Shown here: piece after piece, positions 2,799-53,643 of the stretch
Position numbering within the stretch: position 1 is the first letter of the stretch
Layout: each line of letters starts with the position of its first letter
Source of the DNA: an uncultured virus (IMG/VR IMGVR_UViG_3300010998_000812)
Taxonomy: Duplodnaviria; Heunggongvirae; Uroviricota; Caudoviricetes
Reading direction: 5' to 3' (one strand)
IMG/VR virus record: IMGVR_UViG_3300010998_000812
Length of the DNA stretch: 60,742 nucleotides
Program-made: the position numbers and the translations under genes
Notes under the pieces: model-generated
What the model saw: the letters and a program-made list of their open reading frames with translations, nothing else
The model's database searches: none
What the model was told of the DNA's origin: nothing

Positions 2799-2907
2799 GG
2801 GGCAGCTCGATGTCCTTGGGACGATGAAATACCTATCACGCATAGGCAACTCTCGTTAAGGTTAATCTCACAATAGTATTCCTGTGGGCACTTATAATAG
2901 TGCGAGA
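2799..2907 (+). ncRNA. Dispersed structured RNA, copy 1 of 7 (family unassigned)
   Basis: Conserved GCTCGA, GACGATGAA, AACTCTCGT, ATAGTATTCC and CGAGA blocks with covarying stems. Confidence 0.85.
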
Positions 2908-3040
2908 ATGCGTCGCTGATGCTTGCGTCTAAAGGCATCACGAATGTAATAAGCGCCGAGGAAACAAATGTAGCACAGAGTATAGCTAATGATGCCGAGA
3001 TATTGTCACAATTTTCATGCTTGTTGGATACATATCTTTT

Positions 3041-3110
3041 GTTATAAACGGCAAAATGTCATACTAATATTATAGCAATATTTAAGACGAACGGAGTTTA
3101 TGGTCTGTTA
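3041..3110 (+). promoter_or_regulatory. CATACTA promoter with GACGAACGGAG leader and MVC* minigene
   Basis: GTTAT-N14-CATACTA (3060); leader motif at 3086. Confidence 0.65.
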
Positions 3111-3143
3111 ATGCTAAATATGAATGTATGAAAGGAATGAAAT

Positions 3144-3392
3144 ATGAGGTTTTACAAATTTGTCAAAGAAAGGAAAGAAGATCCGCTGTGTTCGGAATAT
3201 GCAAAGATTGCGTCTGAGATGCGTAACTTTCCGGTTGCCAACTATGACAAGCCTACTATCGAAAGTGCAATCAGACGCTACAAGCGTTCCAAGAAAGAAC
3301 CCTTTGATCAAGTAAAGTTCGATATAGTATGGGATTGCTATCTCAAAGCAAATGCCGAAGAACGGATCGATATGTTTCTTGGCTTTAAATAA
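3144..3392 (+). CDS. Hypothetical protein
   Basis: ORF with AAGGA RBS. Confidence 0.7.
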   Translation: MRFYKFVKERKEDPLCSEYAKIASEMRNFPVANYDKPTIESAIRRYKRSKKEPFDQVKFDIVWDCYLKANAEERIDMFLGFK

Positions 3393-3439
3393 GAGACGCA
3401 TCATTATAAAACAATAATAACAGAGAAAGGTGAACATTC

Positions 3440-3850
3440 ATGAAAGAAGCAAGTTTTACCGAAAATAACGGTGTTACAGTAAGAATTGACTACTTGGAGG
3501 TTTTATTCATTACTGCCGAGGTCAAGGCTGTTGACGGAAAGTTTGTTCTGGTAGGAACGACTGATTATGCCGCCGTTTGTAAGGCTGAAGTACCAATACA
3601 GATATGGATAACCGACCGCAGCTATATCCACGACGATCTCGTGCTCGACATCGGGTCATATGCTTCCGGGTATGGGCTTGTTGAATATCAAGATTTCAAG
3701 TCAGACGGTATAATGAAGCAGGAGGTGGCAGAGCAGGTTGATGCATCCATACTGAAGTATTTAGGCGAAATCGAAAAAGCTTGCAGCTATTTGCTGCCGG
3801 CAATAGACAAGAATTTCGTCTATGATGAAGAACAAGGTCGTATATCATGA
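3440..3850 (+). CDS. Hypothetical protein
   Basis: ORF with AAGGTG RBS. Confidence 0.75.
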   Translation: MKEASFTENNGVTVRIDYLEVLFITAEVKAVDGKFVLVGTTDYAAVCKAEVPIQIWITDRSYIHDDLVLDIGSYASGYGLVEYQDFKSDGIMKQEVAEQVDASILKYLGEIEKACSYLLPAIDKNFVYDEEQGRIS

Positions 3851-4062
3851 AAATTGTTAAGAAGACCAGTGCAACAATATGGTGTGAAGTGGTATGTCAA
3901 AAATGCGGCGGAACAGTAGGGTTCCATTATAAGAACAAATCTACCATCTCCGCAATTAAGAAAGCCACTAAAGGCTGGAAAACCATTGACCTTGAAGACG
4001 GCAGCACATATCAGCTTTGCCCGGAATGCATTGAGCTTATAAAAAATGAAAGGATGGAATAA
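3847..4062 (+). CDS. Small Zn-ribbon protein
   Basis: CQKC...CPEC; ATGA overlap with upstream gene. Confidence 0.75.
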   Translation: MKIVKKTSATIWCEVVCQKCGGTVGFHYKNKSTISAIKKATKGWKTIDLEDGSTYQLCPECIELIKNERME

Positions 4063-4526
4063 TGGGCTATAGAACATATGTAAACGAGGTTCAGATATTC
4101 GGAACCAACGAGAGTTATCCTGAATGGCTTGATTTTATAAGATCGCAAGGCATAGTTGTGGATGAAGACGGCGCTTACGATGGTGTGATAACTGATTTCA
4201 TGGCGGCTTTGTCCGTAATGGAATCGATAACTCAAAGGATAGAGGAAAATTATCGCAAGAACGTCAATATAGGTTCTGTATTCGACTTAAGAGAAGACTA
4301 TGCTTATCTTCGAAAACAGGCTGCATACGATCCTAATGACGAAGATAAATTTAAAATATCGCTTTTTGACTTAAATGTAAATTCTGTGATGCAAGGTTAT
4401 GCTTTTTTCCCGTTTGCGCTATATTTTGCTTGCGCAGATAAGCTCATAGAAGAAGAACACTGGTCGTATCCGAATCATATGCATTGTTTTAAGCTTAAGA
4501 AGCCTATAAGAGTATATGCGAACTGA
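4062..4526 (+). CDS. Hypothetical protein, paralog of 889..1353
   Basis: High visible similarity over the full length. Confidence 0.85.
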   Translation: MGYRTYVNEVQIFGTNESYPEWLDFIRSQGIVVDEDGAYDGVITDFMAALSVMESITQRIEENYRKNVNIGSVFDLREDYAYLRKQAAYDPNDEDKFKISLFDLNVNSVMQGYAFFPFALYFACADKLIEEEHWSYPNHMHCFKLKKPIRVYAN

Positions 4527-4542
4527 AGAAAGGAATAAGAAA

Positions 4543-5259: not shown

Positions 5260-5300
5260 CAAGGACGTACACATCTGATTCAGCATAAACAGACAACACA

Positions 5301-9943: not shown

Positions 9944-10705
9944 ATGGACATGAATAATATTATCTTAAAACAAGGCGATTGTCTAAGAGTGATGCCAGAA
10001 ATTCCGGAAAAATCCGTGGATATGATACTATGCGATCTGCCGTATGGAACCACAAAATGCGCTTGGGACGTAATTATACCGTTTCAGGATTTGTGGAACG
10101 AGTATCTCAGGATAGCCAAAGACAATGCTTGTATCGCATTGTTCGGGCAAGAGCCATTCAGCAGTCTTCTCAGAACCAGCAATATAAGCATGTACAAATA
10201 TGATATATATTGGGAGAAAGAGAGGCTTACGAACATAAATCAAGTGAAAAGACGAGTCGGAAAGACCGTAGAAACAATCAGCATCTTTTACGACAAACAG
10301 TGTACATATCATCCTCAAATGCTCGTACACAAAGGTAAGCCGGTATCAAACAAAGTAAAGAGCGGCAGACTTGGAAAGCTGACAGACAGCCAGAATAAGC
10401 AGGTCAGAGAGTATATCGATACAGGCTATAGATACCCTACACAAGTCTGGAAATACCAAAGGGACTGCCTGACAAGCAATCTTCACCCGACACAAAAGCC
10501 GGTAGCTTTACTTGAAAACCTCATAAGAACATTTACTGATGAGGGAGATACCGTACTGGACTGTTGTATGGGCTCCGGTTCAACAGGTATTGCTTGTATA
10601 AACACGGGAAGAGGCTTTATCGGGATTGAATTGGAAGATAAATATTACAAAATTGCTGAAAACAGAATTAAAAATCATGTTCAAGCGTCAATAATACAGG
10701 GATAG
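9944..10705 (+). CDS. Orphan N4-C/N6-A DNA methyltransferase (beta class)
   Basis: DLPY motif IV, HPTQKP, DCCMGSGSTG motif I; CATACTA promoter at 9899. Confidence 0.92.
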   Translation: MDMNNIILKQGDCLRVMPEIPEKSVDMILCDLPYGTTKCAWDVIIPFQDLWNEYLRIAKDNACIALFGQEPFSSLLRTSNISMYKYDIYWEKERLTNINQVKRRVGKTVETISIFYDKQCTYHPQMLVHKGKPVSNKVKSGRLGKLTDSQNKQVREYIDTGYRYPTQVWKYQRDCLTSNLHPTQKPVALLENLIRTFTDEGDTVLDCCMGSGSTGIACINTGRGFIGIELEDKYYKIAENRIKNHVQASIIQG

Positions 10706-10740
10706 CAGTTCTTAAGGAAACTTAGGAGCTGTTTCTTTTT
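10706..10740 (+). terminator. Terminator nearly identical to 9839-9876
   Basis: CAGTTCTTAAG-GAAA-CTTAGGAGCTG followed by T-tract. Confidence 0.8.
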
Positions 10741-10750
10741 GAAAATATCC

Positions 10751-10800
10751 TGTGTACGAGATACAATAGATTGCAATTTTCCTTCCGAAAAGTCATACTA
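10751..10800 (+). promoter_or_regulatory. TGTGTACGA-box CATACTA promoter upstream of ncRNA copy 2
   Basis: TGTGTACGA at 10751, CATACTA at 10794. Confidence 0.75.
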
Positions 10801-10818
10801 ATGACAGATAAATAATTC

Positions 10819-10927
10819 GGGGTAGCTCGATGCCCTTGGGACGATGAAGTACTTATCAAGCATAGGTAACTCTCGTCAAGGTTAATTCACACATAGTATG
10901 CCGTGTGACGCTCTTTGAAGTGCGAGA
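10819..10927 (+). ncRNA. Dispersed structured RNA, copy 2
   Basis: Same blocks; P3 TCACAC/GTGTGA with loop ATAGTATGCC. Confidence 0.85.
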
Positions 10928-11943: not shown

Positions 11944-12825
11944 ATGAAAAAGTTCATATCAATAATTCTTACCGCAATAATAACGATAAGCATGTTTACT
12001 ATACCGGCATCAGCAGAAAAGCCCCCTTTGTCCATACCGGATGTACATACAGTATACTGTGACGGCTACACTAAGGTGTGGATATACTCAGCCGAGGGTG
12101 CTGAAATACGCTACACGTCAAACGGAGAGACCCCGACGGCATCTTCTAAGCTGTACACAGGTGGGGCACTCAAGGTGAAGAAGAATATCACGCTTAAGCT
12201 GAGACTATCCAAATCGGGATATAAAACCGGTATATATAAATGCAACGTCAAAGTGAAGTCGGTAGACTTTAAAGCTGCGGTCAATTCAGCAAAGCTGTAC
12301 CCTCCTCTGCTTTCGGGAACAAGTATAGATAGCTATGTAAAGGAGGCGGTAGATGCATGTACAACGGACGATATGACTACTTACGAAAAGGTACAGGCGT
12401 GCTATACTTGGCTCGTTAAGAACGTCAAGTATGAAAGAAGTTCGACGGCGCTTGTGTTTGACTGGCAAATGGAAGGACTCGCACATCCGGAAGATTATCT
12501 TATAGTTCTTCAGGCGGGATCCGCATTTAAGAACAATAAGGGCGTATGCGACAACTTTGCAGCAGCCTTTATGCTGATGTGTCGTTATATAGGACTTGAC
12601 GCATATTATGCGGGAGGAGAATGCAAGTCATCTTCCGGCGGATACACAGGTCACGCTTGGACAATCATCGAAGTCGGCAGTAAAATATATCAGTTCGACC
12701 CTATGCTTGATGCGTCTTATGCTCAGAAGAACGAACTTCAGGAGTCGTTCAAGTACTTTGCAAGAGAGGATGGGGATACGTTATACAGGAACAGAGAGAT
12801 ACTGGATTTCTTCTGGTTTGAGTGA
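11944..12825 (+). CDS. Secreted Fn3/chitobiase-C-like plus transglutaminase-like protein
   Basis: Signal peptide; IRYTSNGETPT motif; Cys-His-Asp triad GVCDNFA/GHAW/FDP. Confidence 0.85.
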   Translation: MKKFISIILTAIITISMFTIPASAEKPPLSIPDVHTVYCDGYTKVWIYSAEGAEIRYTSNGETPTASSKLYTGGALKVKKNITLKLRLSKSGYKTGIYKCNVKVKSVDFKAAVNSAKLYPPLLSGTSIDSYVKEAVDACTTDDMTTYEKVQACYTWLVKNVKYERSSTALVFDWQMEGLAHPEDYLIVLQAGSAFKNNKGVCDNFAAAFMLMCRYIGLDAYYAGGECKSSSGGYTGHAWTIIEVGSKIYQFDPMLDASYAQKNELQESFKYFAREDGDTLYRNREILDFFWFE

Positions 12826-12875
12826 TCCGGTTGACCGCAGCGAATGACAAACGATGAGAATATGAGGAGAAAAAG

Positions 12876-13757
12876 ATGAAGAAAGTCATAAGTTTTATAA
12901 TGTCAATAGTACTGGCTTTAAGTTTGTTCAACTTTTCAGCATCAGCGGCAAGCGAAAAAGCCCCCAAACCGGTCATACACACCGAGTATTACGACGGGTA
13001 CACGCGGGTATGGTTCGACGCACCCGAAGGCGTTACTATCAGGTTTACGCACAACGGCGATGAGCCTACAGGCGAATCAAGGGTATATGAAGGAGAGAAG
13101 TTCCGTATTAAGCGAACGACTCGGTTCAGATTTCTTGTTTCGAAGGAAGGCTTAAGAGACAGAGAAGATGATTGCGATGTCAGAGTGATATACTCCAGCT
13201 TTGAGAGAGCAATCAACGCTTCAAGGCTGTATCGTACAAAGACAGGGGACGCTGAAATCGACAGATACATCAAGGAAGCGGTAGAGTCCTGCACTAATGA
13301 CGACATGACCACATACGAAAAGGTAAGAGAATGTTATCACTGGACAGTCAATAACATCAGCTTCCTGAACGATGAGACCACAAAGCTGTTTGATTACCAC
13401 AGAGACACTGTGGACGAAACATCTGAATATCTTATAGAACAGGCGAAGACATCTCTTAAGGGAAAAAGGGGTATAAGCGAAAACCATGCGACAATATTCG
13501 CGCTTATGTGTAACTATATAGGTGTCGGTGCTGCATTTATCAACAGGATAGATGGTTATGATTTGGATGAAGGGTACAAGGAATATGGTCATGCATATAC
13601 TGCTATATATGCAGGCGACAAAGTGTACTACTTTGACCCCAATATGGATGCCGAGGAGTTCTGGGAGCTTAACAGGTTATCTGATTATGACTACTTCGGA
13701 ATTAACGGATCGGATCCTCGGTACAGCAAGTGGAACATGATAGTATTCTTTAGGTAA
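12876..13757 (+). CDS. Paralogous transglutaminase-like protein with Cys-to-Ser at the catalytic position
   Basis: GISENHA/GHAY/FDP; shares CT.DDMTTYEKV with the upstream gene. Confidence 0.85.
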   Translation: MKKVISFIMSIVLALSLFNFSASAASEKAPKPVIHTEYYDGYTRVWFDAPEGVTIRFTHNGDEPTGESRVYEGEKFRIKRTTRFRFLVSKEGLRDREDDCDVRVIYSSFERAINASRLYRTKTGDAEIDRYIKEAVESCTNDDMTTYEKVRECYHWTVNNISFLNDETTKLFDYHRDTVDETSEYLIEQAKTSLKGKRGISENHATIFALMCNYIGVGAAFINRIDGYDLDEGYKEYGHAYTAIYAGDKVYYFDPNMDAEEFWELNRLSDYDYFGINGSDPRYSKWNMIVFFR

Positions 13758-14610: not shown

Positions 14611-14701
14611 AGAAGCGGGGTTATAAATAGCTCCGCTTCTTGTTTTAATCTGTGTACGCCGCACAAAATCATTTCAGTTTTCCCGCCGCTCAATCATACT
14701 A
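14611..14701 (+). promoter_or_regulatory. Terminator followed by TGTGTACG-box CATACTA promoter
   Basis: AGAAGCGGGG/CTCCGCTTCT hairpin; box at 14651; -10 at 14695. Confidence 0.7.
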
Positions 14702-14731
14702 ATATAGAGAGATATATAAAGGAAGGAGAAG

Positions 14732-15745: not shown

Positions 15746-15796
15746 CGATTTACTTAAGCCGTTTGTTTGACGACAACATATTGTATAGGAGACAAG

Positions 15797-16225
15797 ATGA
15801 TGGAAGGCAAGAACAAAACATTATGTTATATAATAGACGGGAAAGAACTATATCTTGATCACTCGCTCGTTGAAATAATACTTATAGAACAGGATTTTCC
15901 TTTGCTGTATGTGTGTACGGATAATGAGGGAGGAACGTATCTCTGTTTGTGTATAGATCCAGACGACGGAGAATACTTGGTTGCAAAAACAGACTCCGCG
16001 AATATTCGCAATTTGACAAATGGTAAAATATCTATGCGAGATGCTTTTAGACGCTCTAAGAAATTGACAAAGGTATTCTCCAGAAGCAGTAACATAAGCG
16101 AGGATATATGCCAGACTGTCAATTATGAAGACTTAAGCGACAACGATCTCCCAAAAGAAGGAGTATGTTTAATGGATAATGATGAGATGGAGAAAAGAAA
16201 AAGAGGAAGAAAGAGGAGAATGTAA
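15797..16225 (+). CDS. Hypothetical protein (possibly DUF6575-like)
   Basis: AGGAG RBS; D.PLL.VC.D and DLP.EG motifs. Confidence 0.7.
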   Translation: MMEGKNKTLCYIIDGKELYLDHSLVEIILIEQDFPLLYVCTDNEGGTYLCLCIDPDDGEYLVAKTDSANIRNLTNGKISMRDAFRRSKKLTKVFSRSSNISEDICQTVNYEDLSDNDLPKEGVCLMDNDEMEKRKRGRKRRM

Positions 16226-16290: not shown

Positions 16291-16400
16291 GGGCTGGCTC
16301 GACAGCCTTGGGACGATGAAGTGGTATCTATAGCGGTACTAACTCTCGTCAAGGTCAATTCCTGCATAGTATTCCGCAGGACACTTGCGAAAGTGTGAGA
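16291..16400 (+). ncRNA. Dispersed structured RNA, copy 3
   Basis: P1 GGCTG/CAGCC and P3 TCCTGC/GCAGGA are compensatory variants. Confidence 0.85.
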
Positions 16401-17696: not shown

Positions 17697-18392
17697 ATGA
17701 GTACAAGAAAAGTTTCAACAGTATATGGGTACATTGAGGAAAGTGAAGAAGAAACAATGACCCAAGAAGAGGTGCAAGAAAAAGTCAGAACCCATATTAA
17801 AGAAAAACTGAAGGCATACGCAAGCCTTCCAGAAGCAGAAGAAGATAAGTATGTAATACTTAACGAGCCCGAACATCAGTATGCAGATCACTCTAATCTT
17901 CATCAGATAAGGGCGTTAAGAAACTTCAAGACTGTTACCGGAGAAGAAATCAAGGTTGGAGATCTCGGAGGATACATTGAAAATGAAAGCAATCTTTCTC
18001 AAAAAGGAAATTGCTGGGTCATGCCTACGGGAACCGTACGTGGTAATGCTAAAGTTATTGATGACGCCTGTATTATCGGAGATGTTTATGAGAACGCCAC
18101 AATAGCTGACAACGCAATAGTAAAAGCGTATGTACATGGCAATGCATATGTCGGTATAGGGTGCGAGGTCAGCGGCGATGCTGAAGTTTTGGATAACGCC
18201 ATAATATTCAACGGATCAAAAATCGTTGAGGACAGTAGGGTCTGTGAAAACGCAATAATTATGGGAAATTCGATAGTATGCGGCGATGCTTTAGTGAAAG
18301 GCGACGCTATTATAGCAGCAGATGTATTGGTAGGAGCAGAGTCGGTAATTGACGGGGCTGCGAACATTGTATCTATGAAAGGGGAGGAATAA
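17697..18392 (+). CDS. Left-handed beta-helix (hexapeptide repeat) protein
   Basis: GDLGGYIENESNLSQKGNCWV followed by (GN/DN)A.(V/I) hexapeptide repeats; CATACTA at 17603. Confidence 0.85.
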   Translation: MSTRKVSTVYGYIEESEEETMTQEEVQEKVRTHIKEKLKAYASLPEAEEDKYVILNEPEHQYADHSNLHQIRALRNFKTVTGEEIKVGDLGGYIENESNLSQKGNCWVMPTGTVRGNAKVIDDACIIGDVYENATIADNAIVKAYVHGNAYVGIGCEVSGDAEVLDNAIIFNGSKIVEDSRVCENAIIMGNSIVCGDALVKGDAIIAADVLVGAESVIDGAANIVSMKGEE

Positions 18393-18397
18393 TAGCT

Positions 18398-19459
18398 ATG
18401 AGTACAAAGAAGACAGCACAGGTAATTAACGAGAACCAGCAGGCGGCTACAGCGCCGATAATTGAATGCCAGACGCTGGGCGAAGAACAGAAGGCTTTTA
18501 ATAAAAGGTTAGCCGAGGCAGCTGAAGAGGTCACTCTTAAGTATGCTATATCCGACAATCCGGAACACACAATAGAGTGGAAAGGACATACTCTTCACCG
18601 CATTGTGGCACTTAGGGACATCCCGCTTGATACCGGAGAGATAATCCTTAAGGGCAGCTATGGCGGGTATATTGAAAGCGAGAAAAACTTATCTCAGGAC
18701 GGGGATTGTTGGGTCGATGATAACGCCAAAGTCTATGAAGACGGTAAGGTGCTTGATAATGCTTATGTGTCGGGGCTTGCCGAGGTTTACGGAGAAGCCA
18801 GTGTAGAGAACGATGCGTCTGCAAGTGGACATGCCAAGATACGCGGACTTGCTTGGGTCTATGGAACAGCTATGATATCCGATAAAGCGAAAATAGGCGG
18901 GAACGCATGCGTGGGAGATGACGCTTATGTATGGGGGAAGGCTAAGGTTTCCGGAAATGCAAAGCTTCAGAACAACATGATGGTTGCAGGTGAAGCGAGG
19001 ATAAAAGGAGACGAGGACTTTCTGAACATATATCCTATTCTTCCTGAGGTAGAGGCTACATTCTATATTACGAAGAACGGGTACGTAGAGGTAAGTTCAA
19101 CAGATGGGATATTTGGTATCGAAGGCTTTAAGAACTATATATTCCAGTCTTCAGACGAAGAAACCTACAAGCACTGTATGGTTATGGTTGAAGCAGCTGA
19201 AAGGTACTTCAATGACAACAAAAGGTCGGCGAACAGAATTAAAGGCGAAGCAATCTTTGCGCTGGTCATGATGAATCAGGAGGCAGCCAAAGAGCACCCT
19301 GAGCGCGAAGAGAAGTGTATGTTTTGCGATGACTGTGGGAAACCCGGCATAGTTCCTGATGACAAAGGGAACCTCGTATGCACTCATTGCGGTAAGCTGA
19401 TAATGAAACGTAAGGGCGTCATGGCATACTTACGCACAAAGAGAGTCGATAACATATAA
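18398..19459 (+). CDS. Hexapeptide-repeat protein with C-terminal Zn ribbon, paralog of the upstream gene
   Basis: GGYIESEKNLSQDGDCWV; CDDC...CTHC. Confidence 0.85.
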   Translation: MSTKKTAQVINENQQAATAPIIECQTLGEEQKAFNKRLAEAAEEVTLKYAISDNPEHTIEWKGHTLHRIVALRDIPLDTGEIILKGSYGGYIESEKNLSQDGDCWVDDNAKVYEDGKVLDNAYVSGLAEVYGEASVENDASASGHAKIRGLAWVYGTAMISDKAKIGGNACVGDDAYVWGKAKVSGNAKLQNNMMVAGEARIKGDEDFLNIYPILPEVEATFYITKNGYVEVSSTDGIFGIEGFKNYIFQSSDEETYKHCMVMVEAAERYFNDNKRSANRIKGEAIFALVMMNQEAAKEHPEREEKCMFCDDCGKPGIVPDDKGNLVCTHCGKLIMKRKGVMAYLRTKRVDNI

Positions 19460-19477: not shown

Positions 19478-19577
19478 AAGAGAGGCAGGGAAGCCTCTCT
19501 TTTTTTGTTTTGATTTGCCCGCTGTCATACTAAATACAGCAATATTATATGAAGAATGGAGTATTATGAAGTTCTGA
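19478..19577 (+). promoter_or_regulatory. Terminator, CATACTA promoter and leader with MKF* minigene
   Basis: GAGAGGC/GCCTCTC hairpin; GTTTT-N14-CATACTA (19526); GAAGAATGGAG (19551). Confidence 0.7.
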
Positions 19578-27539: not shown

Positions 27540-27610
27540 GTTTTGAACAGCAAAAAGTCATACTAAATACAGCATTATTATATGAAGAATGGAGTTTTAT
27601 GAAGTTCTGA
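27540..27610 (+). promoter_or_regulatory. CATACTA promoter and leader with MKF* minigene
   Basis: GTTTT-N14-CATACTA (27559); leader nearly identical to the one at 19526. Confidence 0.7.
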
Positions 27611-31250: not shown

Positions 31251-31266
31251 TCAGATTTCATTCAAG

Positions 31267-31356
31267 AAAGAGGCGGGCAACTGCCTCTTTTTTTGTTTTT
31301 ATATCCTGTGTACGAGCGACAATAGATTACAATTTTCCTCGCGAAAAGTCATACTA
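31267..31356 (+). promoter_or_regulatory. Terminator followed by TGTGTACGA-box CATACTA promoter
   Basis: AGAGGCGG-GCAA-CTGCCTCT; box at 31307; -10 at 31350. Confidence 0.75.
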
Positions 31357-31374
31357 ATGACAGATAAATAATTC

Positions 31375-31485
31375 GGGGCAGCTCGATGTCCTTGTGACGA
31401 TGAAGTGGCATCTATAACGATGTTAACTCTCGTTAAGGTTAATCCCGCCATAGTATTCCGGCGGGGGGCTTGTTGAAGCACGAGA
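31375..31485 (+). ncRNA. Dispersed structured RNA, copy 4
   Basis: P3 CCCGCC/GGCGGG with loop ATAGTATTCC. Confidence 0.85.
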
Positions 31486-40319: not shown

Positions 40320-40383
40320 TATATGAGCTTAATCTAATTGCAGCTCATATCATCAGCGACCAATCAACTTAAGGAGGAAAACT

Positions 40384-48938: not shown

Positions 48939-48951
48939 AGGAGTAAATAAG

Positions 48952-49719
48952 ATGTACGTTAAAGACAAGATAATAGTGAGCGATCCTTGGTTCAAGGATG
49001 ATCCTGAGTATTCCATACTGCTTGAAGACGCTATGACAGGCGAATATATTGCTAATTGCAGCGACGACAAGATAGAAATAAAGCACAACTCTCTCGAAAG
49101 AGACATTCAGTACTACGAGTGCGAGATAAATCGCATCAACGCAAGGCTCAACGCTCTTGTTGTAGGCATATTTGACAACGACTATTATTCCTGCAAGCAG
49201 GAGACCGAAGCATATCAGGATTGGCTTGAGCAGTTATCGGCTATCACCTATGTACAGATACCGAACAGCGAATACCTTGCGTTCTTGTACACAAAGTATT
49301 ACAACAATACCATTGATAAGCTGCTTATGGATATAAAGCTTCAGGCTGAAGAGGGTATCGACTACAGAGAGATAGTCTGTGAAGCAATGCTCAGACAGAT
49401 GCCTGAATATGAACAGGCAATAGTAGACAGCGTTAACGCGGCGTTTGATAGACATTACTTCGGAAGAGGAAAAGGCAGAATCGAACCCTCAGACGGAGTA
49501 AAAACAGCCGTCTATGGAGCTGTAAAGGCTATATTCGACCAGATACCTATTATTCAGTTCGATAAGACAAGAATAATGAAGACATTCGGCGAAGTTGACG
49601 GATACGGGCTCGTATCGGCTATTCAGGAAGAAGGACCTATGGGAAACCTGATAGTTATGTCACATAGGAATGCTGAGGGCTTGGTAGATTATGTGGGTGT
49701 TTCCACAAAAGTTATGTAA
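48952..49719 (+). CDS. Hypothetical protein
   Basis: AAGGAG RBS; IIVSDP motif. Confidence 0.8.
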   Translation: MYVKDKIIVSDPWFKDDPEYSILLEDAMTGEYIANCSDDKIEIKHNSLERDIQYYECEINRINARLNALVVGIFDNDYYSCKQETEAYQDWLEQLSAITYVQIPNSEYLAFLYTKYYNNTIDKLLMDIKLQAEEGIDYREIVCEAMLRQMPEYEQAIVDSVNAAFDRHYFGRGKGRIEPSDGVKTAVYGAVKAIFDQIPIIQFDKTRIMKTFGEVDGYGLVSAIQEEGPMGNLIVMSHRNAEGLVDYVGVSTKVM

Positions 49720-49723
49720 AACC

Positions 49724-49774
49724 TGTGTACGAAAAGCAAAACTGTTTTGATTCCAGTGCTGAACAATCATACTA
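49724..49774 (+). promoter_or_regulatory. TGTGTACGA-box CATACTA promoter upstream of ncRNA copy 5
   Basis: Box at 49724, -10 at 49768. Confidence 0.7.
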
Positions 49775-49797
49775 TTTAGCGAAAACACTAATAATTT

Positions 49798-49907
49798 GGG
49801 GCAGCTCGATGCCCTTGGGACGATGAAGTGGCATCTATAATGATGTTAACTCTCGTTAAGGTTAATTCACACATAGTATGCCGTGTGACGCTCTTTGAAG
49901 TGCGAGA
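49798..49907 (+). ncRNA. Dispersed structured RNA, copy 5
   Basis: 3' half identical to copy 2; P2 apex like copy 4. Confidence 0.85.
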
Positions 49908-49945
49908 TGTGTTGCGCAGTTTTTTGAAGGGCGATGAAGGTTAAT

Positions 49946-50273
49946 ATGTATATTCCAAAAAAACAAAGAAGAATGGGAAGATAGAGAAAACGCTAAAATT
50001 CTCATAGGTGTACTCATTGCCGTTGCATTTGGATGTGTCGCTGCTTTTGCTTTTCATGTCTATGACAATCCCGCCCCTTTCAGCACCCATAAAGAACAAA
50101 GCTCTCAAGCTGGAACTGTTGTTGTGCAACAACAATCTATCGCGGATGAAACCGTATCCAATGCAGAGCTTCTTGAAAAAATCGATGCTATGCAAGCGGA
50201 AATTGATGATTTACGCAGTCAGATTGAGGAAAGCAAACAGGGCATAGGTGCTGAAACGCCTAAAATTAAGTAA
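49946..50273 (+). pseudogene. Single-TM coiled-coil protein frameshifted in an A7 run (49957-49963)
   Basis: Removing one A joins MYIPK to NKEEWEDRENAKILIGVLIAVAFG...ETPKIK*. Confidence 0.6.
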
Positions 50274-50286
50274 TTAAGAGGATTTA

Positions 50287-50544
50287 ATGATGGATAATAT
50301 ATCTGAGAAAAAAGAGTTCGTTCAATGGGAGCAAGTGATAGCGTCTCTTGAACCATTGACGGATAGAATAATAATGATGAATACGAAAGCCTATTGTACA
50401 GGCAGTGATATTCTTCTTATCGAAGCTAAAGACTATATACCTGTATGGTTGGTAACAGTAAAGCATAAAAACAGGGTCGAAGAGGCTATATTCGCAGTCA
50501 CAGGCGAAAAACTTAAGGTGACATCTGTACACCTTTTCGATTAA
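50287..50544 (+). CDS. Small protein resembling DnaX C-terminal/DnaA-N-like domains
   Basis: W..V...L...T.A.....LLI......(V/I)..AI..VTG pattern. Confidence 0.45.
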   Translation: MMDNISEKKEFVQWEQVIASLEPLTDRIIMMNTKAYCTGSDILLIEAKDYIPVWLVTVKHKNRVEEAIFAVTGEKLKVTSVHLFD

Positions 50545-50608
50545 GACACACTAATTTTTTCATTTTCTTTCCCAACACTATATACGAGAGGCAGAAATGC
50601 CTCTCCAC

Positions 50609-50672
50609 CGTCCTGCTTTGGAAGGCGCATGTTTTGTCAGCTTGCAGCATCGGTTCAACTCCGATCAGGACG
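50609..50672 (+). ncRNA. Degenerate tRNA-like element
   Basis: Acceptor CGTCCTG/CAGGACG and T-arm ATCGG-TTCAACT-CCGAT; D and anticodon arms aberrant; no CCA. Confidence 0.5.
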
Positions 50673-50731
50673 TTTATTCCACCTCCTTATGGAACTTGAC
50701 TTCAAGGAGGAGTGCAAATCGCTCCTCCGTA

Positions 50732-50799
50732 TCGTTCTTTAGGTAAACAAGATACCGGAGCCAAAAGCTCAATTCCCGGTGTGAGTCCGGGCAGAACGA
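50732..50799 (+). ncRNA. Degenerate tRNA-like element
   Basis: Acceptor TCGTTCT/AGAACGA, T-like arm CCCGG-TGTGAGT-CCGGG, GAGC-CAAAA-GCTC arm. Confidence 0.45.
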
Positions 50800-50912
50800 A
50801 ACCCCTACGGCATTAAAGAGTGGTCGGACAGAAAACAATAGGTTTTGTAGGTGCAGGGAGATAATCATCGAGCCGCACCGAGTTAGGGTTGCAATGACCA
50901 TTCGCCCCACCT

Positions 50913-51005
50913 GCGAATGTACTCAAGCCGGTTCAAGAGGACGGTTTGCTAAACCGTTAGTGCGGATATACCGCAGCACGAGTTCGAATCTCGTCATTCG
51001 CGCCA
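50913..51005 (+). tRNA. tRNA-Ser(GCT)
   Basis: Full cloverleaf, ACGGT-TTGCTAA-ACCGT anticodon arm, long variable arm, G73, encoded CCA. Confidence 0.93.
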
Positions 51006-51061
51006 AAAAAGGATACAAGGGGAGCAATCCCCTCATATTCTTTCTATTTATAATAGTATAT

Positions 51062-51196
51062 GCGGAGAACACAGCACAGGCTTGGAAACAGCTACAGGAT
51101 GATCGCGACAAAATGTATCTTGCTCAAGCTCGGCGCGGGTGAGGACTATGAGGACGCTCATAGGCACCAAAAGGGTTCGAGTCCCTGCTCCGTTCC
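51062..51196 (+). ncRNA. Expanded tRNA-like RNA (135 nt)
   Basis: Acceptor GCGGAG/CTCCGT plus TCCA, T-arm AGGG-TTCGAGT-CCCT, with large hairpins replacing the D/anticodon/variable region. Confidence 0.55.
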
Positions 51197-51225
51197 AAAA
51201 GACAGCCCGGAAAGACGGGCAATAC

Positions 51226-51301
51226 GGTTCCTTAGTGAAGTGGTAAACACAACGCTCTTTCACGGCGTAGGCGCTCGGTTCGAATCCGGCAGGGATCACC
51301 A
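51226..51301 (+). tRNA. tRNA-Glu(TTC)
   Basis: Cloverleaf, ACGCT-CTTTCAC-GGCGT anticodon arm, encoded CCA. Confidence 0.9.
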
Positions 51302-51304
51302 TAC

Positions 51305-51393
51305 TGGAGCGTAGCCAAGAGGAAAGGCAACGGACTTTGACTCCGTCAGGCGGCGTTAGTCGTGCGTGGGTTCGAGTCCCACCGCTCCAACCA
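51305..51393 (+). tRNA. tRNA-Gln(TTG) with an atypical long variable arm
   Basis: TGGAGCG/CGCTCCA acceptor, ACGGA-CTTTGAC-TCCGT anticodon arm, 19-nt variable region, CCA. Confidence 0.85.
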
Positions 51394-51400
51394 TATTATC

Positions 51401-51509
51401 GGGCTGGCTCGACAGCCTTGGGACGATGAAGTACCTATCAAGCATAGGCAACTCTCGTTAAGGTTAATCCCACAATAGCATTCCTGTGGGCACTTATAAA
51501 AGTGCGAGA
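51401..51509 (+). ncRNA. Dispersed structured RNA, copy 6 (7 nt after the tRNA-Gln CCA)
   Basis: P1 like copy 3; P2-P4 like copy 1. Confidence 0.85.
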
Positions 51510-51585
51510 TTTGCGATTAGCTGTACGAAACAGCGTATAGAAATAACAAATATGATTATTACAAAAATAAGGAAGATAAGATTAT

Positions 51586-52428
51586 ATGAATAATGTAGCA
51601 AAAATATCCTGTACCTTACTGATGACTGCTTTAGCTACAGCTACATCGGTAAGCGCTGCGGGCATACACTCAAACCCGGATACAACCGAGGAAACTATAC
51701 AGGTCTTTGAACCTGATAACACGCTGGTAGGCTCACTTCAGATATCTGACAACGATGATGAGTTCTATAGTAAAATGAGCGGAACGATACCTCTTGACGA
51801 CACAGAAGAAGAGATAAAGATTGAAGAACCCAAGACTGTTGAGCTGGGAGAGAACCCGAACAGCAAATGGGATATAGGAGAAGCGGTTCCCTTGCCGGAT
51901 TTACCGACCTTTGTAATGTTCGGTACGGATTATCATAGGTATGACCTTTGGTACACACCCCACTACAGAATGAGACTGCTTGCCGAAACCGATGAACACG
52001 GCGCGAGAAAGTACAGAGACTGCTTTATGGTAGGTCTTGGCTCATACTATACTGAAGATATAGGAGATGTCTTTGAGATAACTCTTGATAACGGATATTC
52101 ATTCAGGATAATCCTTGGAGACGGAAAGGCAGACGGCGATACAGATGACAGGAATATGTACACACCTGTACCAGATTGGTTTGGAGAAGAGTGTGCCAAT
52201 GTGCTTGAGTTCATCATAGATGCTGAAAATATGCCCAATGACGCATATGAAAGTGGCGGGATGCATTATTTTGAAGAATTTCAGGGTAATATCGAAAGTA
52301 TGGTATATCTCGGAAGAGATACAAGCAATGATTGGACCACGTATTACACCGTGAATGATCTTATAGACGGTGTACCGGCATATGTGGTATACGGAGCCTT
52401 CGAGGAAGACGGAGGTGACGAGATGTGA
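51586..52428 (+). CDS. Secreted protein, possible cell-wall-acting domain
   Basis: Signal peptide, acidic linker, V.LGSYY...IGD.F.I.L.NG...D.KAD..TD motif. Confidence 0.65.
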   Translation: MNNVAKISCTLLMTALATATSVSAAGIHSNPDTTEETIQVFEPDNTLVGSLQISDNDDEFYSKMSGTIPLDDTEEEIKIEEPKTVELGENPNSKWDIGEAVPLPDLPTFVMFGTDYHRYDLWYTPHYRMRLLAETDEHGARKYRDCFMVGLGSYYTEDIGDVFEITLDNGYSFRIILGDGKADGDTDDRNMYTPVPDWFGEECANVLEFIIDAENMPNDAYESGGMHYFEEFQGNIESMVYLGRDTSNDWTTYYTVNDLIDGVPAYVVYGAFEEDGGDEM

Positions 52429-53447
52429 ACTATATCGGATCCAAGTATTCGCTCATAGGGTTTATCGACGATACTATAAGCAGCGTCACGGGGCTTAAGA
52501 ACGGGAAAGGTGTAGTTTTTGCCGACCTGTTCGCAGGAACCGGTGTCGTGGGAGCCCAATTTAAAGAAAAGGGCTGCCATGTTATAGCGAATGACTTGCA
52601 GTATTACAGTTATGTAATGAATAAGCAGTACATAGAAGGTGATGTCCTTATAGAATGTGCGCTGCTCGAACATCTGGACAACCTTAAGAGTAAGAAGGGT
52701 TTTATATATAAGAATTACTGTGCCGGTTCAGGAAGTGAAAGGAATTACTTTACCGACAACAATGGAATGAAGTGCGATGCGATAAGAATAGAACTCGAAA
52801 AACTTCACAGCGGGGGAGAGATAGACGACAAGACGTACTTTTACCTGCTTGCCAGTCTTGTAAATTCCATTGACAAGTATGCGAATACAGCGTCTATGTA
52901 CGGAGCATTCCTGAAATCGGTCAAGAAGTCGGCGCAAAGGGAGTTTAAACTTGAGCTTTTACCGATAATAAGCGGTGAAAACGGAGAGGTTTATAATACT
53001 GATACGAATGAATTGATTAAGAAAATATCGGGAGATATATTATATCTCGACCCGCCGTATAATGAAAGACAGTATTGTGCGTACTATCATCTTCTTGAGA
53101 CGATAGCGAGATATGATAACCCGAAAATAAGAGGGAAGACAGGCTTAAGAGACTATACCAATCAAAAAAGTCTATATTGTTCCAAGAGAACAGTAGAAGA
53201 GGCATTTGAGAAATTGATCGCGAACGCTGATTTCAGTTACATATTCTTAAGCTATAATAACGAAGGTCTAATGAGCCTTGATACGATTAAAGAGATAATG
53301 AGTAAGTACGGAGAGTACAGAAGATTTGAGAAGGAATACCGCAGATTTAAGGCGGATAAGGATGAAAACAGAAATATAAAAGCAGATACCACAACAGAGT
53401 ACCTGCACTGTCTTATTAAAGAAAACAAAGCGCTTTGCTGCGCTTAA
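52425..53447 (+). CDS. Orphan N6-adenine DNA methyltransferase (D12/FokI-like)
   Basis: MNYIGSK, DLFAGTG, LYLDPPYN.RQY, LSYNNEG. Confidence 0.92.
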   Translation: MNYIGSKYSLIGFIDDTISSVTGLKNGKGVVFADLFAGTGVVGAQFKEKGCHVIANDLQYYSYVMNKQYIEGDVLIECALLEHLDNLKSKKGFIYKNYCAGSGSERNYFTDNNGMKCDAIRIELEKLHSGGEIDDKTYFYLLASLVNSIDKYANTASMYGAFLKSVKKSAQREFKLELLPIISGENGEVYNTDTNELIKKISGDILYLDPPYNERQYCAYYHLLETIARYDNPKIRGKTGLRDYTNQKSLYCSKRTVEEAFEKLIANADFSYIFLSYNNEGLMSLDTIKEIMSKYGEYRRFEKEYRRFKADKDENRNIKADTTTEYLHCLIKENKALCCA

Positions 53448-53449
53448 GA

Positions 53450-53519
53450 TAGAAAGTCCGATTTGCTATAACCCCCAACAGGCGGGAAAACCCACGGTTT
53501 TAACCGTGTGGAGTGTCAA
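53450..53519 (+). mobile_element. IS200/IS605-family right-end remnant
   Basis: Subterminal hairpin CACGGTT-TT-AACCGTG followed by TGGAGTGTCAA ending in TCAA; no tnpA/tnpB nearby. Confidence 0.5.
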
Positions 53520-53534
53520 AATCATAATAATTAC

Positions 53535-53643
53535 GGGGCAGCTCGATGTCCTTGTGACGATGAAGTACCTATCACGCATAGGCAACTCTCGTCAAGGTTA
53601 ATCCCTGTATAGTATTCCACAGGGCACTTACAATAGTGCGAGA
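53535..53643 (+). ncRNA. Dispersed structured RNA, copy 7
   Basis: P3 CCCTGT/ACAGGG with loop ATAGTATTCC. Confidence 0.85.

What the first reader, a model, noticed from the sequence alone, without database searches (positions are those of the whole stretch)
2799..53643. Seven dispersed copies of an unassigned ~110-nt structured RNA with strong covariation
Seen: copies at 2799-2907, 10819-10927, 16291-16400, 31375-31485, 49798-49907, 51401-51509 and 53535-53643, all intergenic and on the + strand. Layout: P1 (GGGCA/TGTCC, GGGTA/TGCCC or GGCTG/CAGCC) with invariant loop GCTCGA. P2 is TTG(G/T)GACGA-TGAAGT...AACTC-TCGT(T/C)AAGG, capped by a variable stem (ACCTAT/ATAGGC, ACTTAT/ATAGGT, GGCATC/GATGTT, GGTATC/GGTACT). 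P3 has six different 6-bp stems (CTCACA/TGTGGG, TCACAC/GTGTGA, TCCTGC/GCAGGA, CCCGCC/GGCGGG, CCCACA/TGTGGG, CCCTGT/ACAGGG) around a conserved 10-nt loop ATAG(T/C)AT(T/G)CC. P4 is a short hairpin, then (C/T)GAGA. The 3' CGAGA can pair with either the P1 loop CTCG (pseudoknot) or TCTCG in P2 (alternative fold). Stems vary while loops are conserved, which is the signature of RNA-level selection. Four copies sit about 18-23 nt after a promoter -10, and the downstream genes are unrelated; copy 1 has no gene before the next promoter. I could not match it to hammerhead, twister, pistol, HDV/theta, glmS or the common riboswitch consensuses. Inference: a new ribozyme, riboswitch, antitermination element (HK022 put-like) or protein-binding ncRNA used repeatedly by this element.
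Basis: partly seen in the sequence, partly recalled or inferred. Interest (0 to 1): 0.92.

Follow-up and report, generated by a model that had tools for sequence, protein, structure and literature searches.

The report
New seven-copy phage leader RNA fold
A large, uncharacterised phage-like element from animal gut carries seven copies of a roughly 110-base RNA fold that matches no described RNA family; the copies sit at the head of gene groups or between them, and probably control how those transcripts are elongated or processed.

Summary
Seven + strand copies (65-90% identical) share one four-hairpin fold. A covariance model scores them 118-131 bits; the next best window hit scores 12. Of 210 pair cells, 204 pair, and 14 of 30 pairs show double changes (0 of 500 shuffles match). 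Each copy adopts the fold as its own minimum-energy structure. Rfam 15 has no family for it. Pattern and model searches of IMG/VR, JGI metagenomes, GTDB genomes and GenBank phages found no member. Near relatives in sheep and other animal-gut runs keep copies c5-c7 at the same sites and add new, still-paired stem variants.

Context: the window is a one-directional series of terminator-promoter modules with 26 + strand CATACTA sites. All seven copies lie in units headed by one promoter subclass, and four start 16-21 nt after that promoter's CATACTAWT motif.

Function is untested. My best guess (about 0.33) is a cis-acting nascent-RNA module that acts on RNA polymerase, like put or EAR. A processing or stability site is nearly as likely (0.25). 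Ribozyme, riboswitch, protein operator, mobile DNA repeat and trans-acting RNA remain possible. Folding-energy z-scores are weak and do not identify the strand. It is a real new RNA family with a narrow known distribution.

The parts
2799..2907 (+). Copy c1. P1 2799-2816 (loop GCUCGA), P2 2820-2857, P3 2868-2887 (10-nt loop), P4 2888-2903, tail GAGA 2904-2907. A/U-rich 5' flank 2787-2798.
   Evidence: 124.7 bits; the minimum-energy fold is the consensus fold.
10819..10927 (+). Copy c2. Its 3' half (52 nt) is identical to that of c5.
   Evidence: (124.3 bits).
16291..16400 (+). Copy c3. Lies mid-operon, 65 nt after ORF 15767..16225, with no promoter motif directly upstream. The tail begins with U instead of C.
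   Evidence: (125.2 bits).
31375..31485 (+). Copy c4.
   Evidence: (118.2 bits).
49798..49907 (+). Copy c5, at the head of the unit that holds the tRNA genes. Its 3' end overlaps a weak terminator-like hairpin plus T run (49900-49917).
   Evidence: (120.8 bits).
51401..51509 (+). Copy c6. Starts 7 nt after the end of tRNA-Gln (51305-51393).
   Evidence: 131.0 bits.
53535..53643 (+). Copy c7, between the Dam-like methylase gene (52425..53447) and ORF 53673..54278.
   Evidence: (131.4 bits). RNA-library contigs cover it.
2729..2782 (+). Class A promoter in front of c1: upstream box, -35-like hexamer, 17-nt spacer, CATACTAAT (2774-2782).
10749..10802 (+). Class A promoter in front of c2 (box 10749-10759, CATACTAAT 10794-10802).
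14649..14703 (+). Class A promoter heading the unit that contains c3, 1.6 kb downstream.
   Evidence: There is no other CATACTA site between 14695 and 16291.
31305..31358 (+). Class A promoter in front of c4.
49722..49776 (+). Class A promoter in front of c5. It probably also heads c6 and c7.
53500..53528 (+). Sigma-70-like site (TTAACC, 17 nt, CATAAT) just before c7. A start 7 nt after it would fall on the first G of P1.
   Evidence: 9 of 12 matches; such sites are not above the shuffle expectation.
2685..2714 (+). Intrinsic terminator upstream of the c1 promoter. It is one of 17 strong + strand terminators in the window.
10704..10733 (+). Intrinsic terminator upstream of the c2 promoter.
31264..31293 (+). 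Intrinsic terminator upstream of the c4 promoter.
50913..51393 (+). tRNA-Ser, tRNA-Glu and tRNA-Gln cluster lying between c5 and c6.

Best explanation
The element is a cis-acting module of the nascent + strand RNA. It consists of a roughly 12-nt A/U-rich lead-in, four hairpins and a GAGA tail.

It is transcribed at about +14 of one promoter subclass ('class A': an upstream box, a -35-like hexamer, a 17-nt spacer and CATACT). It also occurs further inside units headed by that subclass.

My preferred mechanism is that the folded RNA stays with the RNA polymerase that made it and changes how that polymerase elongates. This would be anti-pausing or processive antitermination, as with HK022 put and the Bacillus EAR element. 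Transcripts from these promoters would then run through the many intrinsic terminators of this one-directional genome.

The invariant P3 loop is a near-copy, on the non-template DNA strand, of the element's own promoter -10 motif. It may act as a sigma-dependent pause that gives P1 and P2 time to fold, as has been proposed for putL.

Shown: the fold, the copy number, the strand bias, the link to one promoter subclass, and site conservation in relatives. Inferred: transcription start points, action in cis, any contact with polymerase, and any effect on termination.
For: 1. Real RNA-type structure on the gene strand: 204 of 210 pair cells pair, with 22 G-U against 3 A-C. 0 of 500 shuffles match the observed values.

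2. Placement. In 4 of 7 copies P1 begins 16-21 nt after the CATACTAWT motif. That motif occurs 26 times on the + strand, and 23 of those sites are in gaps between ORFs. The element directly follows 4 of the 7 class A promoters and none of the 16 other intergenic motif sites. The other three copies lie downstream in units headed by class A promoters (14695 for c3; 49768 for c6 and c7). This mirrors putL sitting just after PL and putR sitting about 270 nt into its transcript (PMC9378689, passages read).

3. RNA-based antiterminators work only in cis (PMC8191782, discussion passages). That would explain why a copy is needed for each unit. It would also explain why the copies keep the conserved core while their stems have drifted apart.

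4. The genome offers the substrate: 17 strong + strand intrinsic terminators in 60 kb, all co-directional with the genes.

5. c1 has no gene before the next promoter. A promoter whose only direct product is this RNA makes sense if the RNA changes the polymerase that goes on into the next unit.

6. The P3 loop ATAGTAT(T/G) differs from the promoter's ATACTAT by one central base. putL also carries a -10-like sequence that is thought to cause a helpful sigma-dependent pause (PMC9378689).

7. P2's lower helix and its two single-base bulges are invariant. This resembles the bulged stems that put needs.
Against: - No read-through, pausing or binding was tested. All functional steps are inference.
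- Every strong terminator is followed within about 20-90 nt by its own CATACTA promoter, so the genes do not visibly need antitermination.
- c5, c6 and c7 lie within 3.8 kb with no strong terminator between them. One put-like element acts over 10 kb or more, so three would be redundant.
- The c7 unit ends at a 14-pair terminator facing - strand genes, where read-through would be harmful.
- The element is not homologous to put, EAR or conAn2 as far as Rfam and size comparison can show.
- The -10 likeness of the P3 loop could be chance. ATAGTAT occurs 9 more times outside the elements, and I estimate odds of roughly 0.005-0.03 after allowing for the choices made.
- The association with class A promoters is inflated, because promoter and element were duplicated together in 4 copies.
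- The RNA-library contigs that hold the element (X19, X20) cannot exclude DNA carry-over and show no transcript ends.
Confidence: 0.33

Rival explanations
1. RNA processing and stability site. A host RNase (RNase Y in the A/U-rich lead-in, or RNase III in the roughly 20-pair P2) cuts at the element. This would separate tRNAs and cistrons and leave the downstream mRNA with a structured, protected 5' end, as at the RNase III sites of T7 and SP82 early transcripts.
For: - c6 starts 7 nt after tRNA-Gln, and c5 heads the tRNA unit.
- c3 and c7 fill the only long gaps inside their operons.
- All seven copies keep an A/U-rich single-stranded lead-in before a stable P1.
- P2 is a long irregular helix.
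- Three copies in one 3.8-kb unit fit processing better than antitermination.
- SP82 early RNAs are known targets of B. subtilis RNase III (PMC4838370, passage citing Panganiban and Whiteley 1983). T7 also has dispersed sites, including one just after its early promoters (recalled).
Against: - Known processing sites are single hairpins. Four hairpins with invariant loops and bulges are more than a nuclease site needs.
- In promoter-linked copies P1 would begin about 13 nt from the inferred 5' end. From recalled B. subtilis work, that is too far to block 5' exonuclease without a prior cut.
- No RNA ends could be seen, because the available runs are kept as contigs only.
Confidence: 0.25
2. Operator for an RNA-binding protein of the phage or host. 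The protein would co-regulate translation or decay of the seven units, forming a post-transcriptional regulon like T4 RegA or coat-protein operators. A nut-like loading site for a protein antiterminator is a variant of this.
For: - The loops (GCUCGA; AUAGUAUKCC), the bulged P2 helix and the junction AAGGUYAAU are invariant while neighbouring stems vary. That is the pattern of sequence-specific recognition.
- The downstream genes are unrelated, which fits a timing regulon rather than a metabolic one.
Against: - No RNA-binding protein is recognisable among the 76 ORFs scanned.
- The elements sit 30-200 nt from start codons at no fixed distance, so direct occlusion of ribosome sites is unlikely.
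Confidence: 0.12
3. A new class of self-cleaving ribozyme that trims leaders and separates cistrons, acting as a natural insulator.
For: - A compact multi-hairpin fold with invariant unpaired bases, and a possible pseudoknot between the P1 loop and the 3' tail that would close the fold.
- Several copies in a phage-like element of a gut Firmicute type. From memory, this is the setting where small ribozymes cluster.
- c6 abuts a tRNA 3' end.
Against: - No match to any Rfam ribozyme model, even at E<=10, on any of the 7 copies.
- No known ribozyme occurs elsewhere in the window.
- The pseudoknot cannot be tested here.
- No cleavage evidence of any kind.
Confidence: 0.08
4. A DNA-level repeat. Either a small mobile or recombining repeat (REP/MITE-like, or part of a PeSL-like portable promoter cassette), or a folded single-strand DNA signal on the lagging-strand template. 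The RNA fold would be secondary or irrelevant.
For: - The - strand also folds well (z -0.99 to -3.38).
- The copies are mosaics that have clearly exchanged segments.
- Promoter and element were duplicated as one roughly 190-nt block in 4 copies.
- The window's terminator-promoter modules resemble the PeSLs of T4-like phages that drive module shuffling (PMC4122927, abstract).
- Earlier notes of this scan report that several similar multi-copy 'structured leaders' turned out to be mobile hairpin repeats.
- GC skew is positive throughout, so the + strand would be the lagging-strand template.
Against: - 22 G-U against 3 A-C cells favour the + strand as RNA.
- I saw no terminal inverted repeats or target duplications in the flanks (by eye).
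- Loops and bulges are more conserved than stems.
- All 3 sites examined (c5, c6, c7) are occupied at the same places in both relatives laid, X2 and X3, at roughly 90-95% identity (table 8). No presence/absence polymorphism was seen.
- No copy lies inside a gene, and all seven lie in one promoter class.
Confidence: 0.08
5. A trans-acting small RNA or decoy. Its high dosage from many copies would titrate a host protein or nuclease, for example as an anti-defence sponge.
For: - c1 is a promoter plus element with no gene before the next promoter.
- The invariant loops could mimic a natural ligand.
- The P1 loop contains the self-complementary UCGA, which could let molecules pair with each other.
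Against: - No terminator follows 6 of the 7 copies, so discrete small RNAs would need processing.
- A trans-acting RNA would not need to sit at fixed positions in particular transcription units, or to avoid sequence identity between copies.
Confidence: 0.05
6. A riboswitch-like sensor of a global signal that tunes several operons.
For: Leader position, a complex fold with conserved unpaired bases, and a possible alternative pairing of the 3' CGAGA with UCUCG in P2.
Against: - The copies share no expression platform. Only c5 has a terminator-like hairpin overlapping the tail.
- The downstream genes share no theme.
- Three copies are mid-operon.
- No Rfam riboswitch match.
Confidence: 0.04
7. 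A portable internal promoter. The -10-like CATAGT in the P3 loop would start transcripts for the downstream genes, with the hairpins incidental.
For: - The P3 loop is 7 of 8 identical to the promoter motif.
- c3 and c6 have no other promoter motif close by.
- Most of the window's promoters lack a good -35.
Against: - All 26 + strand CATACTA promoter-motif sites have C at the central position, whereas the loop has G there in all 7 copies.
- This reading does not explain the covariation in four hairpins.
Confidence: 0.03

Closest known systems
HK022 put RNAs (putL, putR)
   Same: A cis-acting structured RNA repeated within one phage, placed just after an early promoter or a few hundred nt into the transcript. 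The copies differ by paired changes, the stems are bulged, and a -10-like sequence is embedded (PMC9378689, passages).
   Different: put is about 70 nt with two stem-loops and occurs twice per phage, in an enterobacterial host. This element is about 110-122 nt with four hairpins, occurs seven times in 60 kb, and sits in a setting that looks like a Firmicute phage. There is no sequence or model similarity, and function is untested.
EAR (eps-associated RNA) of Bacillales
   Same: From memory: an RNA of about 120 nt with several hairpins and a pseudoknot, which lies inside an operon and makes polymerase read through terminators. PMC8191782 names it, with put, as one of the only two other known RNA-based antiterminators.
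   Different: EAR is a single copy tied to polysaccharide operons. No Rfam family matched the seven copies. I did not check that an EAR model is among the 4227 families.
conAn2 RNA of Gram-positive conjugative plasmids (pLS20)
   Same: An RNA region in a mobile element of Gram-positive bacteria that confers antitermination in cis, with stem-loops needed for activity (PMC8191782, passages).
   Different: conAn2 regions are 260-600 bp, occur once per element, lie next to the conAn1 gene and need ConAn1 for long range. None of this is seen here.
RNase III processing sites of phage early transcripts (T7 R0.3-R18.5; SP82)
   Same: Dispersed, same-strand, conserved structured sites between cistrons and right after early promoters of a phage. 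SP82 is a Firmicute phage (PMC4838370, passage; the T7 details are recalled).
   Different: Those are single long hairpins with an internal loop. This element adds three small hairpins with invariant loops.
PeSL promoter-terminator cassettes of T4-like phages
   Same: Repeated composite regulatory motifs in accessory-gene regions that serve as recombination points (PMC4122927, abstract). The window's terminator plus CATACTA modules and the duplicated promoter-element block look like this.
   Different: PeSLs are a terminator stem-loop plus an early promoter. They do not include a 110-nt covarying multi-hairpin RNA downstream of the promoter.
REP, REPIN and MITE-like hairpin repeats
   Same: Multi-copy intergenic repeats that fold and can show paired changes. 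Earlier notes of this scan resolved several look-alike findings this way.
   Different: No terminal inverted repeats and no empty sites in the two relatives examined. The loops and bulges are invariant, and the element is confined to one promoter class.

Membership tests
Any Rfam 15 family (4227 models, including hammerhead, twister, pistol, hatchet, HDV-like, glmS and riboswitch classes) | Covariance-model score at or above the family's gathering threshold | tested here: not met
   Whole window at gathering threshold: only 3 tRNAs. At E<=10 on all 7 copies no family recurs. The best overlap is gltS at 20.8 bits against a threshold of 47.5, on c4 only.
HK022 put | About 70 nt forming two stem-loops | tested here: not met
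   The element has four hairpins over 109-111 nt. put's size and fold are taken from PMC9378689.
HK022 put | Located just downstream of early promoters, or further into the early transcript | tested here: met
   4 of 7 copies start 16-21 nt after the promoter motif, and 3 of 7 lie further inside units. Promoter class and start points are inferred from sequence only.
HK022 put | Binds the RNA polymerase beta-prime zinc-binding domain and suppresses termination in cis | not testable with these tools
   Needs transcription assays or structural work.
Self-cleaving ribozymes (any class) | Site-specific self-scission | not testable with these tools
   The only available test was the Rfam models, which were negative.
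Riboswitch | An aptamer joined to an expression platform (terminator/antiterminator or ribosome-site sequestration) that is conserved across copies | tested here: not met
   Folds of each copy with 160 nt downstream show no shared platform. Only c5 has a terminator-like hairpin.
Riboswitch | Consistent association with genes of one pathway | tested here: not met
   Downstream ORFs are unrelated or unknown.
REP / MITE-like mobile repeats | Terminal inverted repeats or target-site duplications | tested here: not met
   None is visible in the flank alignment. This was inspection by eye, not a dedicated tool.
REP / MITE-like mobile repeats | Presence/absence polymorphism between close relatives | tested here: not met
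   c5, c6 and c7 (3 of 3 sites examined) are occupied in both relatives laid, X2 and X3 (table 8). c1-c4 were not examined.
RNase III processing sites | A helix of about two turns that is cleaved by RNase III | tested here: inconclusive
   P2 reaches about 14 predicted pairs, plus a possible 5-pair extension at its base. Cleavage cannot be tested here.
PeSL cassettes | A composite terminator stem-loop plus early promoter, repeated in accessory regions | tested here: met
   This holds for the surrounding terminator-CATACTA modules. The RNA element itself lies downstream of the promoter and is not part of that definition.

The most novel reading that the evidence does not exclude
The element is a previously unknown class of catalytic RNA. 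It would be a self-cleaving ribozyme that a large gut phage places behind promoters, between cistrons and after a tRNA cluster, to cut its transcripts into insulated units with defined, protected 5' ends.
Probability: 0.08. Interest if true: 0.9.

Novelty: new variant of a known kind. Interest (0 to 1): 0.62.

Why it matters
According to the passages read (PMC8191782), only three RNA-based processive antiterminators are known: put, EAR and conAn2. Few small ribozyme classes are known either. A compact, well-supported RNA fold used seven times by one uncultivated animal-gut phage is a ready candidate for either group, and it is short enough for direct bench tests.

Whatever its function, it marks one promoter subclass of this element. 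It therefore gives a handle on the timing programme of a large phage with almost no recognisable genes. It also shows how copies of a cis-acting RNA can keep a functional core while their stems drift apart within a single genome.

Tried and rejected
Searches for family members elsewhere all came back empty.
- blastn of c1 against GenBank phages: no match.
- megablast of 15 kb against phages and 25 kb against plasmids: no match.
- Three exact core patterns in IMG/VR: 0 loci.
- A fourth, looser pattern in IMG/VR: 9 loci, best R1 score 11.7 bits.
- JGI metagenome pattern: 37 loci, best 16.3 bits. Seventeen of them have the same 41-nt match span; in an alignment of 16, the largest group shares conserved flanks unrelated to the element, and from its reverse-strand reading I take it to be a gene start.
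- GTDB genomes: 5'-half pattern 0 loci; 3'-half pattern 7 loci, best 12.3 bits.
- R1 over 80 IMG/VR loci (1.13 Mb) around FtsH-like genes: 0 hits at E<=1.
- A 639-aa ORF had no relatives in IMG/VR or in phages.
- No whole genome is held for this window.
- This scan's earlier notes have nothing on this genome and no look-alike sequence.

The phage structured-RNA catalogue (PMC10690425): four core strings were absent from the 6 supplementary files that could be searched. Three files were not searched, so the motif could still be listed there.

RNA libraries X19 and X20 hold contigs with the element. These are contigs only, so they show no ends, strand or level, and DNA carry-over is possible. 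I do not count them as proof of transcription.

Ideas dropped after inspection:
- A closing helix between the 5' lead-in and the sequence after GAGA (pairs in c1 only).
- A kink-turn in P2 (the non-bulged strand lacks the GA that I recall as required).
- Pairing of the P3 loop with junction or P2 bases (broken by the natural variants in c2/c5 and c4/c7).
- A leader peptide after the element (the short ORFs are not conserved).
- An integron attC-like site (no single long imperfect hairpin, no integrase in the window).

Thermodynamic z-scores neither support nor identify the strand.

Full report
WHAT IS THERE

A covariance model built from them (R1), run over the whole window with filters off, finds these seven at 118.2-131.4 bits. 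Nothing else scores above 12.1 bits; 15 hits had E<=10. Pairwise identity between copies is 65-90%.

The consensus fold has four hairpins. Coordinates are given for c1.
- P1 (2799-2816): 6 pairs closing the invariant loop GCUCGA.
- P2 (2820-2857): an invariant lower helix with two single-base bulges, topped by a variable 5-7-pair cap.
- Junction: AAGGUYAAU.
- P3 (2868-2887): 5-6 variable pairs around the loop AUAGUAUKCC.
- P4 (2888-2903): directly adjoins P3.
- Tail: GAGA.

Every copy adopts this fold on its own as its minimum-energy structure.

IS IT MORE THAN CHANCE?

Of 30 predicted pairs, 14 carry changes on both sides. Of 210 pair cells, 182 are Watson-Crick, 22 G-U, 3 A-C and 3 other. 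None of 500 column shuffles reaches the observed pairing, the double-change count or the covariation score. Sliding the partners by 1-3 columns collapses pairing to 31-44%. There are 4, 4, 6 and 4 distinct stem versions of P1, the P2 cap, P3 and P4.

Three cautions apply.
- The copies are mosaics. c2 and c5 share a 52-nt identical run, and c3/c6 and c4/c7 each share 33 nt. Segments have been exchanged, so cells overcount events.
- Folding energies are ordinary: + strand z from -0.18 to -2.57. The reverse strand does as well or better, at -0.99 to -3.38.
- The strand call rests on 22 G-U against 3 A-C cells (97.1% against 88.1% paired) and on co-orientation with the genes.

The suggested pseudoknot between the P1 loop and the 3' tail uses only invariant bases, plus one G-U-compatible change in c3. 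It can be neither supported nor rejected here.

IS IT KNOWN?

Rfam 15 at gathering thresholds finds only three tRNAs in the window. Permissive scans (E<=10) over all seven copies give no recurring family. The only overlaps are single sub-threshold hits:
- gltS 20.8 bits (threshold 47.5), HOTAIR_2 10.3 bits and, on the - strand, AsdA 11.2 bits on c4.
- freshwater-2 15.3 bits (threshold 49.9) on c3.
- snR67 touching 5 nt of c5.

Searches outside the window found no member.
- GenBank phages by blastn.
- IMG/VR by three exact core patterns and a looser one: 9 loci, best 11.7 bits.
- JGI metagenomes: 37 loci, best 16.3 bits. In an alignment of 16, the largest group shares conserved flanks unrelated to the element, which I read as an unrelated gene start.
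- GTDB species genomes by both halves of the core: 0 loci and 7 loci, best 12.3 bits.
- 1.13 Mb around FtsH-like genes of IMG/VR phages.

Four core strings are absent from the 6 searchable supplementary files of a 10,006-motif phage RNA catalogue. Three of its files could not be searched.

WHERE DOES IT OCCUR?

A k-mer search over public runs lists 20 rows from 10 studies that hold part of 49600-54000. These are animal-gut samples, including sheep and bovine. Most hold small shares, and only four runs were laid.

In the two DNA runs laid (X2, X3), contigs at roughly 90-95% identity run from unique flanks into c5, c6 and c7 at the same sites. One X3 contig crosses c6 entirely (table 8). Summed depth rises from a baseline of 74.5 to 332-596 over the element bins in X3 (table 2), as expected for a repeat of several copies. 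Letters between assembly joints give further P2-cap versions that still pair, GCUUGU/AUAAGU and GGUAUC/GAUGUC (table 5c).

Two RNA libraries (X19, X20) contain contigs with the element. One is identical over 53458-53585, and three come from other copies. These are contigs, show no ends, and may include DNA.

SURROUNDINGS

The window encodes about 76 ORFs, all but one or two on the + strand. Most are unknown. Recognisable ones include an FtsH-like protease, three DNA methylase or nuclease-like proteins, a dUTPase, an AIM24-like protein, a formate/nitrite transporter-like protein, VWA and BspA-type repeat proteins, and three tRNAs. The nearest phage relatives of single genes infect Clostridia and Fusobacterium. 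No hallmark virion gene lies in the window, so 'phage' is likely but not proven.

The DNA is organised as a chain of terminator-promoter modules. There are 17 strong + strand intrinsic terminators. The motif CATACTA occurs 26 times on the + strand, and 23 of those sites are in gaps between ORFs, usually just after a terminator and 20-40 nt before a ribosome site. The two - strand ORFs also have it upstream.

Seven of the intergenic sites form a subclass, which I call class A. It has an upstream box (CCTGTGTACGA or a near match), a -35-like TTGCAA-type hexamer, a 17-nt spacer containing a short inverted repeat, and then CATACT.

The RNA element directly follows 4 of these 7 sites and none of the other 16. 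c3 lies 1.6 kb into the unit of a fifth class A promoter, and c6 and c7 lie in the unit headed by the c5 promoter. So all seven copies belong to class A units. This association is partly inflated, because promoter and element were copied as one block.

If transcription starts about 7 nt after CATACT, P1 begins near +14, after the lead-in AGAUAAAUAAUUC. All seven copies, including the three without a promoter, keep a similar A/U-rich lead-in.

A NEW DETAIL

The invariant P3 loop reads (C)ATAGTAT(T/G) as + strand DNA. That is the promoter motif CATACTAT with one central base changed, and it is also the exact reverse complement of ATACTAT. ATAGTAT occurs 15 times on the + strand, 6 of them in the elements. 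After allowing for the choices made, I put the chance odds at roughly 0.005-0.03, so this is a lead rather than a result.

It could be a sigma-dependent pause signal. putL of HK022 carries such a -10-like sequence, thought to help folding (PMC9378689, passages). It could also be an internal promoter, an antisense promoter, or simply a conserved RNA loop.

HOW IT MOST LIKELY WORKS

A need for one copy per transcription unit points to action in cis on the RNA or on the transcribing enzyme. A trans-acting product would need one gene.

Two readings fit the placement almost equally well.

(a) Polymerase-modifying RNA, like put, EAR or conAn2. These act only in cis (PMC8191782, passages).
- For: the promoter-proximal and mid-unit positions, the terminator-rich one-directional layout, the gene-less c1 unit, the bulged invariant P2 helix and the -10-like loop.
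- Against: every terminator has its own promoter behind it, three copies sit within 3.8 kb with no strong terminator between them, and nothing functional was tested.

(b) Processing and stability site, like the RNase III sites of T7 and SP82 early RNAs. SP82 is cited via PMC4838370; the T7 details are recalled.
- For: c6 abuts the tRNA cluster, c3 and c7 fill intercistronic gaps, the lead-in is A/U-rich, and P2 is long.
- Against: the complexity of the fold.

I put (a) at 0.33 and (b) at 0.25. A protein operator follows at 0.12, a new ribozyme at 0.08, a DNA-level or mobile repeat at 0.08, a trans-acting RNA at 0.05, a riboswitch at 0.04 and an internal promoter at 0.03.

The mobile-repeat rival deserves respect. 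Earlier notes of this scan resolved several similar findings that way. Here, though, no inverted termini or empty sites were seen, loops and bulges are better conserved than stems, and G-U pairs favour the RNA sense.

VERDICT

This is a real, unassigned structured RNA family. It is so far private to one lineage of animal-gut phage-like elements and is tied to one promoter class. It is a new variant of the known kind 'cis-acting structured RNA in phage transcripts'. Which kind of mechanism it uses remains open, and bench tests could settle it quickly.

Noticed in passing
window, 26 + strand sites (e.g. 3060, 5340, 7311, 9899, 13779, 19526, 28165, 32232, 37740, 44261, 47333, 57777); - strand sites at 55175 and 56741: A nine-base promoter-like motif, CATACTAWT, recurs just after nearly every terminator and 20-40 nt before ribosome sites. 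Most sites lack a good -35. These terminator-promoter modules resemble the PeSL cassettes of T4-like phages.
   Followed up: partly
window 2729, 10749, 14649, 31305, 40268, 49722, 56784 (promoter boxes); 41512, 45437, 37315 (inside ORFs): The 11-mer CCTGTGTACGA marks the upstream edge of the seven class A promoters. It also occurs, exact or with one change, inside three ORFs, where it reads as the codons for E-P-V-Y-E. Six exact copies in 60 kb is far above chance. The link between the two settings is unexplained.
   Followed up: no
window P3 loops, e.g. 2873-2882, 10893-10902, 49873-49882: The invariant P3 loop is the promoter -10 motif with one central base changed, and the exact reverse complement of ATACTAT. 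In c2 and c5 the - strand reads a perfect CATACTAT. It could be a pause signal, an internal or antisense promoter, or coincidence.
   Followed up: partly
window 49900-49917: In c5 only, the P4 3' arm and the tail can form an alternative 6-pair hairpin followed by a T run (terminator-like). c2 has the same P4 and tail but lacks it.
   Followed up: no
window 50609-50673: A weak tRNA-like match (Rfam tRNA 20.5 bits, threshold 29, E 0.82) in the roughly 1-kb ORF-poor stretch between c5 and tRNA-Ser. It may be a decayed or unusual tRNA.
   Followed up: no
window 19526-19560, 27559-27595, 28165-28200: Three promoters share a nearly identical leader, ribosome site and first codons. This suggests duplicated promoter-leader-gene-start cassettes.
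   Followed up: no
window 51007-51299 versus run X3: A relative in run X3 has 1312 other letters in place of the 291 bases between tRNA-Ser and tRNA-Gln (table 5). The tRNA cluster is a site of module replacement.
   Followed up: no
window 11944-13757; 17697-19459; 56839-60741: Tandem paralogues: two transglutaminase-like proteins, two phrog_5070 proteins, and three BspA-type leucine-rich-repeat proteins.
   Followed up: no
window 53656-53662 (- strand): A - strand CATACTA lies 13 nt after the end of c7, overlapping the ribosome-site region of ORF 53673. Its meaning is unknown.
   Followed up: no
window 40322-40349: The class A promoter at 40313, which lacks the RNA element, is instead followed at once by a 7-pair hairpin at the inferred 5' end of its transcript.
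   Followed up: no
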